64,000 bases of DNA from Octopus vulgaris (taxonomy: Eukaryota). A program made the position numbers. Of this stretch, positions 35,925-40,461 are shown piece by piece. How positions within the stretch are numbered: the stretch's first letter is position 1; each line of letters starts with the position of its first letter. Location of the stretch: NCBI GenBank assembly GCA_951406725.2, contig OX597819.1:27590001-27654000 (forward strand), read 5' to 3'.

Positions 35925-38900
35925 GGGTGTGTGTGATTGTGTATAGAAGAATATATTAATAAAAAGAATTCCAACCTTGTCTGATTTTCACGTTTTATTT
36001 ACAATCTTATAATGATATATTATAAGATAATATATTATAATTGAATAAAATAAAATGAAATAGTAGAATGTTAAATATTCATTCTGATTGAACTAGTACT
36101 TTCATGCATTGAATTCTGCAATCTTCGGGTTCATGTAGTAGTGTTGACAGTCATGCTTCACAATTTTTGACTGTAGCAAGATGAGTGATTCTGTGCTATA
36201 AATACAGCTGGGTAGGCTCCAGAGTGCTAGGTTTTGCAAACTGTATTCTGACCAATCAGTGTGTAGTATCACTCAATTACTTAAGCTGATTGGTTGGTTG
36301 AGCTGATTGGTTTAGGCATCACGCTTTGTTGGACAGGTCAAGAGTCCTGTATCTTGACCCTGGCCGAAGCAGCAATCGTTGGGTTATTTTTAGAAATGTT
36401 GTAAATATCCTTTGTCAGAGATTTTTATATTTTTATATTTCAATTGTCATCATCATCATTGTCAGCACCTTAATTATTGTTGCTAGTGGTGATGGTGGTG
36501 GCAATAGAACTTTTAACCCTAAATAAGATAATTTTCCTGCTATCTTCGTCTTGATCACCTTTAGTATTGTTGTTGTTGTTAGTGGTCATGGTCGTAGCAG
36601 TGGAAGTAATACCTCTAAGTATTATTATTATTGCTTATTCAGCTTGGGTTCGAATTTATCAATAAAATTCTTTTCTCTGATTTTCCTCTCGATTTCACTT
36701 GGGCTGTGTAATTTGTAGAATGGAAATATTATATATATTTTCCGACCACATGTTGCTAGGTGGTTACTCAAAGGTATCTGACGGACCTCTGGGTCTCTAA
36801 TCTGTTGCCGGTGTACACGTGAGCGTTCTAATAGTGCGTTTCCCGTCTGACCTACATATATTTCTTCACAATTTGGGCATTTGATGCAGTAAATTAAATT
36901 TCTGCTTTTGCAGTTCATATTCGCGTTTGTGAATATTTTCCCGGTTTTTGTGTTTATATATTGACCGGTATGTATGAATTGGCATGTGCCACATCGGCTA
37001 TCATTGCATTTAGATACCGTGAATGTTTGGTCTTTGTTGCTGAGGTCAAATTTTGCCTTTGTTAGTAATGTTTTCAAGTTTTTAGGCTGTCTTTTACTAA
37101 GCACCATAGCTCGATCCTTGATTATGTCTTTTAATTCATTACTTTGGGCAATGATTGGAAGGTTTGCTTTGGCAATGTTGAAGATATTCTGGTGACATGG
37201 GTTGTGTGTCACTATGAATGGTATGACTTGTTCTTGTTTTCCTCTTCCTTGGGTTGTCCTAAGTTGTTGTATAGGTATTTTTATAGCCCGCTGTATGCCA
37301 TTTTCTATAAGTAGAGATGGGTATTTTTGTTTGAGCAAAAATTCTCTTAGTTCTATTAGGCGTTTGTTCCTGATATTTGCATCTTCTACAATAGTACAAA
37401 TTCTTCTGGCTAGGCAGTATGGGATGTTACGTTTTGTATGCGGTGGATGGCACGACTTAAAATTTAGGTATTGATGTGTGTCTGTGTGTTTATAGTATAT
37501 ATCTGTGGTGATGGTGGTGTCTTTTTTAATTACCATTATATCCAGGAATGGTAATTTGGTACTACTCATCTCCTTTGTAAATTTGAGAGATGGGTGTAGG
37601 TTGTTCAGGAGGATATTGAACTCTTCCAGAGTATTTAGAGATTCTGTCCAGATTATGAAACAGTCGTCTAGGTATCTCTTCCATGCCTTTTCAATATACT
37701 TTCTAAATCCAGTGCCATAGTTTACCTCCACCTCTTGGTAGAGTTGTTCTTCTAAGTACCCCATTACAGAGTTGGCGTAAACGGGAGCAAACCTCGTTCC
37801 CATCGCCGTGCCTCTAATTTGGATGTAATTCTTTCCATTGAAGAAGAATGTGTTATTTTCTAGAATAAGTTTGACTGTGTCTAATATAAATGGCACTGTG
37901 AATCTGCTGGGAATCACTTCTCTATGTTTTTCTAACCAGTATTTAATCGCCTTTATTCCTAAATCGTGTGGAATATTGGTGTAGAGGCTTACCACATCAA
38001 AACTTAGCAAAACTGAATTTGTTTCTGTTGTTTTGGGAAGATGGGACAGGAAGTCGATGTCATCCCTGATGAAACTTGGTATGTAAGTACATAGTGGTTT
38101 CAAAACAATGTCAATAAAATTGCTTAGACGGTGTGTAGGGCATGCTGGACCAGCTATAATAGGTCTAAGTTTTAGGTCTTTTGGATGTAATAATTTTATG
38201 TACTCACTTTCTTGTTCTTTTACTGCCTGTTGAATGTTTTTTGATTTGTGTATTTTTGGTAAGCCGTAAAAGTTGCTGGGTTTTGGTTCAAAATTGGTGA
38301 TGTAGTCTTTTTCATTATCCGTAAGTGAGTTGTGGTGTGTTGAAATCAGGTTGTGTGTGTGTGTATGTGTGTGTGTGTATAAACATCTACACGCAGACAA
38401 ATAGACACACACTTGCACAAACGCATATGCTAGCATACGAGTACACATTCACAAACACATATACAAATGCAAGTATATACGCGCACTTAAATACAAATAC
38501 TAATATACATAAACACCGCATACAAAACGTAACATCCCATACTGCCTAGCCAGAAGAATTTGTACTATTGTAGAAGATGCAAATATCAGGAACAAACGCC
38601 TAATAGAACTAAGAGAATTTTTGCTCAAACAAAAATACCCATCTCTACTTATAGAAAATGGCATACAGCGGGCTATAAAAATACCTATACAACAACTTAG
38701 GACAACCCAAGGAAGAGGAAAACAAGAACAAGTCATACCATTCATAGTGACACACAACCCATGTCACCAGAATATCTTCAACATTGCCAAAGCAAACCTT
38801 CCAATCATTGCCCAAAGTAATGAATTAAAAGACATAATCAAGGATCGAGCTATGGTGCTTAGTAAAAGACAGCCTAAAAACTTGAAAACATTACTAACAA

Positions 38901-39995
38901 AGGCAAAATTTGACCTCAGCAACAAAGACCAAACATTCACGGTATCTAAATGCAATGATAGCCGATGTGGCACATGCCAATTCATACATACCGGTCAATA
39001 TATAAACACAAAAACCGGGAAAATATTCACAAACGCGAATATGAACTGCAAAAGCAGAAATTTAATTTACTGCATCAAATGCCCAAATTGTGAAGAAATA
39101 TATGTAGGTCAGACGGGAAACGCACTATTAGAACGCTCACGTGTACACCGGCAACAGATTAGAGACCCAGAGGTCCGTCAGATACCTTTGAGTAACCACC
39201 TAGCAACATGTGGTCGGAAAATATATATAATATTTCCATTCTACAAATTACACAGCCCAAGTGAAATCGAGAGGAAAATCAGAGAAAAGAATTTTATTGA
39301 TAAATTCGAACCCAAGCTGAATAAGCAATAATAATAATACTTAGAGGTATTACTTCCACTGCTACGACCATGACCACTAACAACAACAACAATACTAAAG
39401 GTGATCAAGACGAAGATAGCAGGAAAATTATCTTATTTAGGGTTAAAAGTTCTATTGCCACCACCATCACCACTAGCAACAATAATTAAGGTGCTGACAA
39501 TGATGATGATGACAATTGAAATATAAAAATATAAAAATCTCTGACAAAGGATATTTACAACATTTCTAAAAATAACCCAACGATTGCTGCTTCGGCCAGG
39601 GTCAAGATACAGGACTCTTGACCTGTCCAACAAAGCGTGATGCCTAAACCAATCAGCTCAACCAACCAATCAGCTTAAGTAATTGAGTGATACTACACAC
39701 TGATTGGTCAGAATACAGTTTGCAAAACCTAGCACTCTGGAGCCTACCCAGCTGTATTTATAGCACAGAATCACTCATCTTGCTACAGTCAAAAATTGTG
39801 AAGCATGACTGTCAACACTACTACATGAACTCGAAGATTGCAGAATTCAATGCATGAAAGTACTAGTTCAATCAGAATGAATATTTAACATTCTACTATT
39901 TCATTTTATTTTATTCAATTATAATATATTATCTTATAATATATCATTATAAGATTGTAAATAAAACGTGAAAATCAGACAAGGTTGGAATTCTT

Positions 39996-40060
<65 letters not shown>

Positions 40061-40461
40061 GACGGTCGTCTTTTTTCAGTTTCCGTTTACCAAATCCACT
40101 CAGAAGGTTTTGGTCGCTCGAGGCTGTAGTAGGAGACACTTGCCCAAGGGCCCAAGGGCCCAAGGGGTGCCATGCAGTGCGACAGAACCCGGAACTGTGT
40201 GGTTAGGAAGCACGTTTCTTACCATATCTGTAAGTGTATCTCCGTGTTTTTAAAGCCTGTGTTAGCATGTGTGTGCTACGCTTGCTTGTGCTTTTGAGTT
40301 TATGTATATTAGTATTTGTATTTAAGTGCGCGTATATACTTGCATTTGTATATGTGTTTGTGAATGTGTACTCGTATGCTAGCATATGCGTTTGTGCAAG
40401 TGTGTGTCTATTTGTCTGCGTGTAGATGTTTATACACACACACACATACACACACACACAT

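What the first reader, a model, noticed from the sequence alone, without database searches (positions are those of the whole stretch)
35951..40460. Young Neptune-type PLE inserted as a divergent inverted pair bridged by captured flanking DNA
The arms 35951-37445 and 38514-40008 are 1495-bp mirror images with 3' ends pointing outward. Both truncated 5' ends join a 163-bp spacer (38352-38514) that is the reverse complement of host DNA about 290 bp beyond the right arm (40298-40460). The ORF has no stops. Inverted PLE insertions are known, but this junction records an apparent template jump onto neighbouring chromosomal DNA between two cDNA syntheses (inference). Read-through transcription would yield a 1.5-kb hairpin, a possible siRNA/piRNA source.
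Basis: partly seen in the sequence, partly recalled or inferred. Interest (0 to 1): 0.7.

Follow-up and report, generated by a model that had tools for sequence, protein, structure and literature searches.

The report
Inverted retrotransposon pair with borrowed spacer
Two nearly identical, truncated copies of a Penelope-like retrotransposon sit head-to-head in a TA repeat, joined by 163 bases copied backwards from DNA 290 bases away; the layout is already known for this kind of element, and the junction is a clear but single, unconfirmed example.

Summary
Arms 35951-37445 and 38514-40008 are reverse complements with 1 mismatch in 1495. The spacer 38352-38514 is an exact reverse complement (163/163) of 40298-40460. 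The left copy continues 906 bp past its arm, so the pair is 2.4 kb (minus strand) plus 1.5 kb (plus strand), with 5' ends facing each other.

The ORF encodes a reverse transcriptase followed by a C-terminal GIY-YIG endonuclease. [quoted passage not shown] It starts at residue 121-122 of full-length relatives. Both outer ends abut (TA)n.

The literature already describes head-to-head truncated PLE copies, (TA)n targeting, a one-sided "tail", host-DNA capture, and cleavage and extension of both target strands in vitro. The unusual part is a filler copied from the element's own flank, with 1-nt overlaps at both joints.

Best reading: one integration event with two cDNAs, bridged by a templated detour onto the right flank. 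Sequence alone cannot say whether the element's reverse transcriptase or a host repair polymerase made the filler.

Not tested: read support, the empty allele, other copies of the family, RT phylogeny and small RNAs. No hammerhead ribozyme core was found. This is a new member of a known kind, of modest interest.

The parts
35898..35923 (.). (TA)13 run on the left outer flank; remnant of the presumed (TA)n target
   Evidence: TA runs
35925..35950 (-). 26-nt extension between the left (TA)n and the shared 3' end of the element. It is present on the left copy only and is AC-rich in element sense. It is either a candidate PLE 'tail' or plain flank.
   Evidence: 15 of 26 positions differ from the right side, which runs straight into TA repeat; PMC8557442 and PMC11167929 describe a 30-40-bp tail on one end only; one search found no stem-loop signal
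35951..38352 (-). Left PLE copy, 2402 bp, 5'-truncated. 3' UTR 35951-36627, stop codon 36628-36630, coding 36631-38352 (574 codons: RT, linker, GIY-YIG)
37446..38351 (-). 906 bp of the left copy with no counterpart in the right copy (RT N-terminal half); shows the left copy was not copied from the right one
   Evidence: (only a self hit)
38352..38514 (+). 163-nt filler, an exact reverse complement of 40298-40460. Positions 38352 and 38514 can each be assigned to either neighbour (1-nt overlaps).
38514..40008 (+). Right PLE copy, 1495 bp, 5'-truncated inside the RT thumb/linker region. Coding to 39328, stop codon 39329-39331, 3' UTR 39332-40008
39649..39776 (+). Promoter-like cluster in the 3' UTR (two CCAAT, one inverted CCAAT, a TATA-like and an Inr-like motif) in element sense. 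The mirror copy lies at 36183-36310 on the minus strand. Both point out of the pair.
   Evidence: the motif names come from general knowledge, and function was not tested
40004..40057 (.). (TA)27 run on the right outer flank, directly after the right copy's 3' end
40058..40297 (.). Flank between the insertion and the filler source: a SINE-like repeat (to about 40227), then GT-rich low-complexity DNA
   Evidence: 6 further copies in the window at 68-80%, aligned to query positions about 10-170
40298..40460 (+). Source of the filler, in native context. GT-rich DNA continues to its left, and a third (CA)6 block at 40463-40474 continues to its right.

Best explanation
This is one complex integration of a canonical endonuclease-bearing Penelope-like element into a (TA)n microsatellite.

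Inferred sequence of events:
- The element's nuclease opened both strands.
- Each 3' end primed reverse transcription at the 3' end of element RNA.
- This gave two converging cDNAs: a left one of about 2.4 kb, possibly started 26 nt further downstream and so carrying the 'tail', and a right one of 1.5 kb.
- Before the two 5'-truncated ends were joined, one growing 3' end made a detour. It copied 163 nt of the right-hand flank starting about 290 nt from the break. It then paired with the other cDNA through a single base, and the gap was filled and sealed.

Two topologies fit:
- (A) The right cDNA snapped back onto its own strand at the limit of 5' resection, copied 40298 to 40460 and stopped in the (CA)n.
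- (C) The left cDNA re-initiated on the AC-rich end of a plus-sense template and copied 40460 back to 40298.

What is shown: the element's identity, the two truncated copies, the exact filler and its direction of origin, the 1-nt overlaps, and the TA flanks. What is inferred: a single event, two primings, and the detour. The enzyme that made the filler is unknown. Both copies lack at least 120 N-terminal codons, so they are dead on arrival.
For: Structure.

Identity:
- Pfam gives RVT_1 (E 2.5e-6, 27.8 bits, just under the 29.6 cutoff) and GIY-YIG (25.4 bits against a 22.6 cutoff).
- There are 2264 relatives with E<=1e-5 among 7991 candidates scored; the best is 65% identical and 698 aa long.
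- Residue 1 of the window protein aligns to residue 122 of P0002. tblastn of P0002 gives only two hits in the window, and they start at 38352 and 38519.
- Invariant in 16 aligned sequences: C448-x4-C453-x2-C456, N484/Y487, C491/C494, Y498/G500/T502, R509, H513, H530, E559, N571 and D228/D229 (the same pattern appears in the 18-sequence alignment).

The arms end exactly at the element's 3' terminus on both sides, next to TA runs. The left copy carries 906 bp that the right copy lacks, so at least the left copy came from RNA or from another copy.

Literature:
- An inverted 5'-truncated copy next to a PLE is common, the tail sits on one end only, and the CX2-5CxxC linker is tied to (TA)n targeting (PMC8557442, passages and section 11).
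- Head-to-head is the most frequent inverted form; host-DNA spacers and template jumps have been proposed (PMC3846280, passages).
- Purified PLE protein cleaves and extends both target strands, starts RT at two internal sites whose interval equals the tail, and is predicted to be dimeric (PMC11167929, main text read in full).
- A LINE-1 analogue exists: cDNA self-annealing after hyper-resection, templated insertions and inverted duplications at target sites (PMC11702581, passages).
Against: - No reads, empty allele or second copy of the family could be examined, so the structure rests on one assembly.
- No target-site duplication can be read, because both flanks are TA repeat.
- One-nucleotide overlaps are also what end-joining of unrelated ends would give.
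- The 26-nt 'tail' may simply be flank. It is shorter than the published 30-40 bp, and the 3' terminal 126 nt of RNA show no stem-loop signal (z -0.31).
- The single C/T difference between the arms means they are not strictly identical. It could come from two source RNAs, an RT error, a later mutation or a sequencing error.
- None of the 9 related loci fetched shows a (TA)>=6 run, so TA targeting is not confirmed in relatives. Those contigs are short and may be cut before their flanks.
- A 163-nt filler is long for the Pol theta-type templated insertions I know of (general knowledge). No in vitro PLE work shows a jump onto DNA.
Confidence: 0.62

Rival explanations
1. Two sequential insertions of the same young family into the same (TA)n. 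The right copy came first. Later the left copy entered beside its 5' junction with loss of the remaining TA repeat, and its 5' end was joined through a filler copied from DNA then 1.8 kb away.
For: TA repeats in this window attract PLEs repeatedly: a third, about 70% similar PLE 3' fragment lies at 40546-40772, again followed by (TA)n. The one C/T difference between the arms allows different source RNAs or a time gap.
Against: No TA repeat remains between the two 5' ends. This scenario needs an extra deletion and still needs the same templated filler. The 1/1495 and 0/163 differences fit simultaneity just as well. Head-to-head pairs are a regular product of single PLE events according to PMC3846280 and PMC8557442.
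Confidence: 0.12
2. A single left-copy insertion was followed by a DNA-level rearrangement (replication template switching or break-induced fold-back). This copied 163 nt of flank and then 1495 nt of the existing copy in inverted orientation.
For: The order of segments can be produced by two template switches of one growing strand. Inverted duplications through template switching are well documented (listing only: PMC10766183, PMC11293582). The element ends in a TA-rich stretch that could give microhomology with the (TA)n.
Against: The duplicated arm stops exactly at the element's 3' terminus and does not run on into the 26 nt that follow the left copy. That fits a second RNA-templated start better than a DNA copy. 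The PLE protein is known to extend both strands (PMC11167929).
Confidence: 0.1
3. It is an assembly or read artefact (a fold-back chimera, or a mis-join between repeats).
For: PLE tandem and inverted structures are known to trouble assemblies (PMC8557442 passage). I had no reads.
Against: The structure is not a simple palindrome. It has a 906-bp unique segment and needs two separate joins 163 nt apart, each at a precise element or flank position. One arm difference exists. There are no N in the window. The layout matches published PLE anatomy.
Confidence: 0.1
4. The topology is the same as in the best explanation, but the template for the filler was a nascent host or read-through RNA from the flank, not DNA.
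For: Reverse transcriptases prefer RNA templates, and a nascent transcript is tethered near the break. PLEs are reported to capture host sequences, even with introns (PMC3846280 passages). The landing site is AC-rich, like the reported RT start site (PMC11167929).
Against: No gene or promoter was found near the flank. In the ORF and Pfam scan of the window, 14 of the 81 stop-to-stop ORFs of at least 130 aa were scanned against Pfam, and only 2 had hits above the curated cutoff, both TE-like: RVT_1 and DDE_3. T runs at about 40243 and 40292 would stop a Pol III read-through from the SINE-like repeat before the source segment (the terminator rule is general knowledge).
Confidence: 0.06

Closest known systems
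Head-to-head inverted, 5'-truncated copies and inverted pseudo-LTRs of endonuclease-bearing Penelope-like elements (PMC3846280; PMC8557442)
   Same: Two copies of one element lie with their 5' ends facing each other. Both are 5'-truncated, an extension is present at one outer end only, the target is AT-rich microsatellite, and the arms are young and near-identical.
   Different: No full-length unit and no direct pseudo-LTR are present here. The inverted junction is not a palindrome or a short overlap but a 163-nt segment copied from the insertion's own flank. I did not find that detail in the passages I read.
Neptune (and Nematis) clades of PLEs
   Same: C-terminal GIY-YIG with the internal two-cysteine motif, the upstream CX2-5CxxC linker and (TA)n insertion sites. 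The DKG motif is present in full-length relatives.
   Different: No canonical hammerhead core occurs in the 677-nt 3' UTR or anywhere in the 2.4 kb retained. Clade placement by RT phylogeny was not done. The motifs do not separate Neptune from Nematis.
Host-DNA spacers in Pen1_Av of Adineta vaga and other PLE-mediated captures (PMC3846280)
   Same: Non-element DNA is built into the element's repeat structure. The authors attribute this to the element's unusual replication and to template jumps.
   Different: Those spacers are 0.9-1.5 kb, lie before the 3' pseudo-LTR, and have no identified source. Here the spacer is 163 nt, lies between the two 5' ends, and its source is identified 290 nt away in inverted orientation.
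LINE-1 twin priming and target-site rearrangements (PMC11702581; twin priming also in PMC2837659, listing only)
   Same: The second strand's 3' end is also used as a primer. The two cDNA ends are joined with little or no microhomology. Templated insertions, inverted duplications and cDNA self-annealing after resection are reported at insertion sites.
   Different: Twin priming starts the second cDNA inside the same RNA and gives an inversion without duplication. Here both cDNAs start at the RNA 3' end and share 1495 nt. The enzyme family also differs (GIY-YIG and a telomerase-like RT rather than APE and a LINE RT).
Snap-back templated insertions in polymerase theta-mediated end joining (listing and abstract starts only: PMC4912351, PMC5068794, PMC5728401)
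   Same: The insert is a reverse-complement copy of sequence on the same side of the break, joined through minimal microhomology.
   Different: From general knowledge, such inserts are usually tens of bases long and lie close to the break. This one is 163 nt long and starts about 290 nt from the genomic end (about 1.8 kb from the cDNA tip).

Membership tests
Penelope-like elements, endonuclease-bearing, C-terminal EN (canonical) | A single ORF with a reverse transcriptase domain followed by a C-terminal GIY-YIG endonuclease | tested here: met
   RVT_1 at residues 87-240 (E 2.5e-6, 27.8 bits, slightly under the 29.6 cutoff) and GIY-YIG at residues 485-571 (25.4 bits, above the 22.6 cutoff). D228/D229 of the RT active-site motif are invariant in 16 sequences.
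Penelope-like elements, endonuclease-bearing, C-terminal EN (canonical) | [quoted passage not shown] | tested here: met
   C491 and C494 lie between Y487 and Y498/G500 and are invariant, as are H513 and H530. Which histidines complete the motif is my own assignment.
Penelope-like elements, endonuclease-bearing, C-terminal EN (canonical) | Pseudo-LTRs from partial tandem copies | tested here: not met
   There is no direct repeat of element sequence at this locus, only the inverted pair. Both copies are 5'-truncated, so the family's full structure cannot be seen here.
Penelope-like elements, endonuclease-bearing, C-terminal EN (canonical) | Frequent 5' truncation and an adjacent inverted truncated copy | tested here: met
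   the copies start at residues 121 and about 424 of a 698-aa relative, and they lie head-to-head.
Penelope-like elements, endonuclease-bearing, C-terminal EN (canonical) | Canonical hammerhead ribozyme motif near the 3' end or in the pseudo-LTR | tested here: not met
   No Rfam hammerhead at E<=1 in 34000-42500. There are 0 CUGANGA heptamers on either strand of the arm or in the sense strand of the left copy. A core-plus-helix-II-plus-GAAA descriptor gave 0 hits even with 1 mismatch, while 1 of 5 related loci tested (L002) gave a clean hit. Rfam also missed that L002 hit, so the motif search is the more telling test. The missing 5' part was not examined.
Penelope-like elements, endonuclease-bearing, C-terminal EN (canonical) | [quoted passage not shown] | tested here: inconclusive
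   A 26-nt extension that is AC-rich in element sense occurs on the left copy only. No other copy of the family was available to show that it is element sequence, and there is no stem-loop signal.
Neptune clade | CX2-5CxxC zinc-finger-like linker upstream of GIY-YIG (shared with Nematis; absent in Penelope/Poseidon; CxCX5C in Hydra) | tested here: met
   C448-x4-C453-x2-C456, invariant in 16 sequences and in 18 sequences.
Neptune clade | Placement among Neptune references in an RT phylogeny | not tested
   No clade-labelled reference sequences are held by the tools. The supplements of PMC8557442 were not opened, because sequences from outside the session may not be entered. The paper notes that Neptune is paraphyletic in its own tree.
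Neptune clade | Insertion preference for (TA)n | tested here: met
   Both outer ends abut TA runs (35898-35923, 40004-40057), and a second PLE fragment at 40546-40772 is also followed by (TA)n. This is a sample of one locus plus one fragment.
Hydra clade | Loss of the internal CCHH motif, a CxCX5C linker, and DKT instead of DKG | tested here: not met
   The internal cysteines are present and the linker is CX4CxxC. Full-length relatives carry DKG. This is not Hydra.
Naiad/Chlamys clades | [quoted passage not shown] | tested here: not met
   The endonuclease is C-terminal in the window's copy and in the relatives.

The most novel reading that the evidence does not exclude
The junction is a natural record showing that head-to-head PLE pairs are built at the chromosomal target by a two-sided reaction, not in a self-primed free intermediate. 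It would also show that the element's own reverse transcriptase can leave its RNA and restart on an AC-rich stretch of nearby host nucleic acid. The same step could underlie PLE capture of host DNA and of intron-bearing genes. If so, flank-derived fillers should recur at inverted junctions of this family, with landing sites biased to AC-rich sequence.
Probability: 0.15. Interest if true: 0.55.

Novelty: new member of a known kind. Interest (0 to 1): 0.3.

Why it matters
How Penelope-like elements integrate is still poorly understood. The inverted and tandem structures, the tail and host-sequence capture have been described from genomes, and only one in vitro study exists. A very young, unmutated head-to-head pair whose bridge can be traced to its own flank ties junction formation to the target site. 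It also fits the in vitro finding that both strands are cut and extended. A genome-wide survey of this family could turn the single case into a test of the model. On its own it is a single example that adds a detail to known behaviour.

Tried and rejected
- **Spacer as part of the element:** rejected. tblastn of a full-length relative stops at 38352, and residues 1-120 match nothing in the window. The read-through translation of the spacer is low-complexity.
- **Flank as the copy and spacer as the original:** rejected from context.
- **Hammerhead ribozyme:** none found.
- **N-terminal coding start hidden in the 3' region, as in some pseudo-LTRs:** nothing seen in three frames.
- **Stem-loop at the candidate tail:** no signal.
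- **Origin of the 26-nt extension elsewhere in the window:** only a 19-nt chance match.
- **Host gene or promoter around the locus:** of the 81 stop-to-stop ORFs of at least 130 aa, I scanned the 14 that looked least like microsatellite. Two had hits above the Pfam cutoff, RVT_1 and DDE_3, both TE-like.
- **Solved structures:** 0 matches.
- **Related loci:** the first scan with the single protein found none. The second scan, with an alignment, found 9 short contigs filed under bacterial names that encode the same eukaryote-type element. They showed tandem, direct and inverted repeats in some loci (6 of 9 loci examined) but have too little flank to test for flank-derived fillers.
- **Newer Pfam families listed for relatives (PF28514, PF26215):** absent from the local library.
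- **Host organism:** not determined. The nearest named relatives of the protein are from bivalve molluscs.
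Full report
**What is in the sequence.**
- 35951-37445 is the reverse complement of 38514-40008, with a single mismatch in 1495 (36128 versus 39831, in the 3' UTR).
- 38352-38514 is the exact reverse complement of 40298-40460 (163 of 163).
- The tool extended the long pair to 35902/40057 only because both sides run into TA repeat. Within 35925-35950, 15 of 26 positions mismatch.
- Identity of the 163-nt pair stops abruptly at both ends.
- When the first 103 of the 163 nt of the source were used as a query, the best other matches in the 64-kb window were 68-73% over 67-95 nt. 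This is not chance similarity of low-complexity DNA.

**Anatomy.**
- The left element does not stop where the mirror image stops. On the minus strand an open frame of 573 codons runs from 38349 to the stop at 36628-36630.
- tblastn of a 698-aa relative places residues 121-696 on 38352-36637 and residues 425-696 on 38519-39322. It finds nothing else in the window.
- The locus is therefore, from left to right: a TA run (35898-35923); a 26-nt extension (35925-35950); a 2402-bp copy on the minus strand (35951-38352); the 163-nt filler; a 1495-bp copy on the plus strand (38514-40008); and a TA run (40004-40057).
- To the right follow a SINE-like repeat and GT-rich DNA (40058-40297), then the source of the filler (40298-40460).
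- The 5' ends face each other and the 3' ends point outward.
- The 906 bp at 37446-38351 exist only in the left copy. The left copy therefore cannot be a copy of the right one.

**What the element is.**
- The protein search returned 2264 relatives at E<=1e-5 among 7991 scored candidates. The best are 65% identical and 698-729 aa long. The nearest with names are from bivalve molluscs, or from bacterial bins of bivalve symbionts that probably contain host DNA.
- The window's protein begins at residue 122 of the best relative. It thus lacks the N-terminal region that carries the DKG motif in full-length relatives.
- By the criteria in PMC8557442 (passages and its Hydra section) this is a canonical C-terminal-endonuclease PLE with the Neptune/Nematis type of linker. 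It is not Hydra, not Penelope/Poseidon, and not Naiad or Chlamys.
- I could not run the RT phylogeny that defines Neptune, because no labelled references are held in the tools. 'Neptune-type' therefore remains a motif-based call.

**A departure from canonical PLEs.** No hammerhead ribozyme core is present.
- Rfam finds none at E<=1.
- There is no CUGANGA heptamer in either copy.
- A descriptor of core plus helix II plus GAAA finds nothing even with one mismatch. It does find a clean core 155 nt after the ORF of a 45%-identical relative, L002. That is 1 hit among the 5 of 9 related loci that I tested.
- Rfam missed that L002 control, so its silence on the window counts for little on its own.

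**Which 163-nt copy is the original.** At 40298-40460 the sequence sits in context. GT-rich low-complexity DNA continues to its left. To its right, the periodic (CA)6-TA block has a third unit at 40463-40474 before the TA run. The spacer holds only two such units and is cut off on both sides by element sequence. The flank is therefore the source and the spacer is the copy. Each joint has one base that could belong to either partner: 38352, which also completes a codon matching residue 121 of the relative, and 38514.

**How it most likely arose.**
- Everything except the filler is standard PLE behaviour. [quoted passage not shown] It also states that a 30-40-bp tail is often present at one end only, and that the CX2-5CxxC linker has been linked to (TA)n targeting.
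- PMC3846280 says head-to-head is the most frequent inverted form. It reports host-DNA spacers in one family and proposes self-priming and template jumps.
- PMC11167929 (main text read in full) shows that a purified PLE protein cleaves and extends both target strands, unlike R2 and LINE-1. It starts reverse transcription at two internal sites whose interval corresponds to the tail, favours an AC-rich start region, and is predicted to be a dimer.
- The locus reads naturally as one such two-sided event in a TA microsatellite, with two cDNAs that both start at the RNA 3' end. The left copy carries a 26-nt extension that is AC-rich in element sense and could be the tail. This is suggestive only, since it could be plain flank.
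- The filler requires that, before the ends were joined, a 3' end copied 163 nt of the right flank. Two topologies fit:
  - The right cDNA folds back on its own strand, starts at 40298 (perhaps the limit of 5' resection, which would explain the 290-nt offset) and stops in the CA repeat.
  - The left cDNA restarts on the AC-rich end at 40460 of a plus-sense template and runs to 40298.
- A LINE-1 study reports the same kinds of events at insertion sites: cDNA self-annealing after hyper-resection, templated insertions and inverted duplications (PMC11702581, passages).
- Sequence alone cannot tell whether the PLE's RT or a host repair polymerase made the filler. Snap-back templated insertions by polymerase theta are the obvious host alternative. 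For those I saw only the search listing; my impression that they are usually much shorter comes from general knowledge.

**Rivals.**
- Two sequential insertions. This needs an extra deletion of TA repeat and the same filler anyway.
- A DNA-level fold-back duplication of a single insertion. This is disfavoured because the duplicated arm ends exactly at the element's terminus rather than running into the 26 nt beyond it.
- An assembly artefact. This is disfavoured by the asymmetric structure with two precise joins, but it could not be tested without reads.
- A nascent RNA template. No transcription unit was found: only TE-like hits were seen among the 14 of 81 long ORFs scanned.

**The hairpin idea.** A transcript crossing both arms would fold into a 1.5-kb stem. 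However, the only promoter-like motifs in the arms point outward from the pair: two CCAAT boxes, one inverted CCAAT, a TATA-like and an Inr-like motif at 39649-39776 and its mirror (names from general knowledge). An outside or antisense promoter would be needed. PLE copies are reported to yield mostly antisense small RNAs in a rotifer (PMC3846280 passages). From recall, not seen here, hairpin-derived small RNAs have been described for Penelope in Drosophila.

**What stayed unchecked.**
- The host genome, its reads and its other PLE copies were not available.
It yielded nine short PLE-bearing contigs with too little flank to test for flank-derived fillers. None of the 9 shows a (TA)>=6 run.
- The supplements of PMC8557442, which may hold clade-labelled sequences and hammerhead calls, were not opened.
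- Whether a flank-derived filler at a PLE inverted junction is already in print was searched only. I found no such description in the passages read, but this is not proof of absence.

**Verdict.** This is a young, dead-on-arrival, head-to-head pair of a mollusc-type PLE in a TA repeat. It is a new member of a known kind with an informative junction. Interest 0.3.

Noticed in passing
window 39649-39776 (+), mirror at 36183-36310 (-): The element's 3' UTR holds two CCAAT boxes, one inverted CCAAT, a TATA-like and an Inr-like motif in sense orientation. This is a possible pseudo-LTR promoter. In this inverted pair it would drive transcription outward into both flanks.
   Followed up: partly
window 35951-38352 and 38514-40008: This C-terminal-endonuclease PLE has no canonical hammerhead core in its 677-nt 3' UTR or anywhere in the retained 2.4 kb. 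A 45%-identical relative (L002, core at 3660) has a clean one.
   Followed up: yes
window 40546-40772 (+): A 227-bp 3'-end fragment of a second PLE family, about 70% identical over the last 111-122 nt. It has the same orientation as the right copy and is again followed by a TA run (40768-40835). TA repeats here seem to be hit repeatedly.
   Followed up: partly
window 40058-40227 and six other sites (95-228, 1701-1819, 6288-6428, 25158-25283, 30515-30589, 62574-62711): A SINE-like repeat is present in seven copies at 68-80% identity. A different SINE-like unit lies at about 35476-35690.
   Followed up: no
window 16438-17514 (+) and 26902-27417 (-): Other transposon remnants: an ORF with a reverse transcriptase domain (neighbouring open frames 15750-16535 and 17690-18391 gave no hit) and an ORF with a DDE_3 transposase domain. 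No host gene was recognised among the ORFs scanned.
   Followed up: partly
L009 1885-2324; L008 552-824 and 3205-3477; L006/L007 (one 12.4-kb contig): Distant PLE relatives, filed under bacterial bin names, show the family's usual repeat forms. L009 has a 210-nt inverted pair (95%) 20 nt apart just upstream of its ORF. L008 has 273-nt direct repeats 2653 bp apart. L006/L007 are two copies about 3.08 kb apart in tandem on one contig. These contigs are probably eukaryotic DNA mis-binned as bacterial.
   Followed up: partly
window 36628-38448 (-): The stop-to-stop frame of the left copy runs 32 codons into the filler by chance. An automatic ORF caller would report a 606-aa chimeric protein with a low-complexity N-terminus.
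   Followed up: yes
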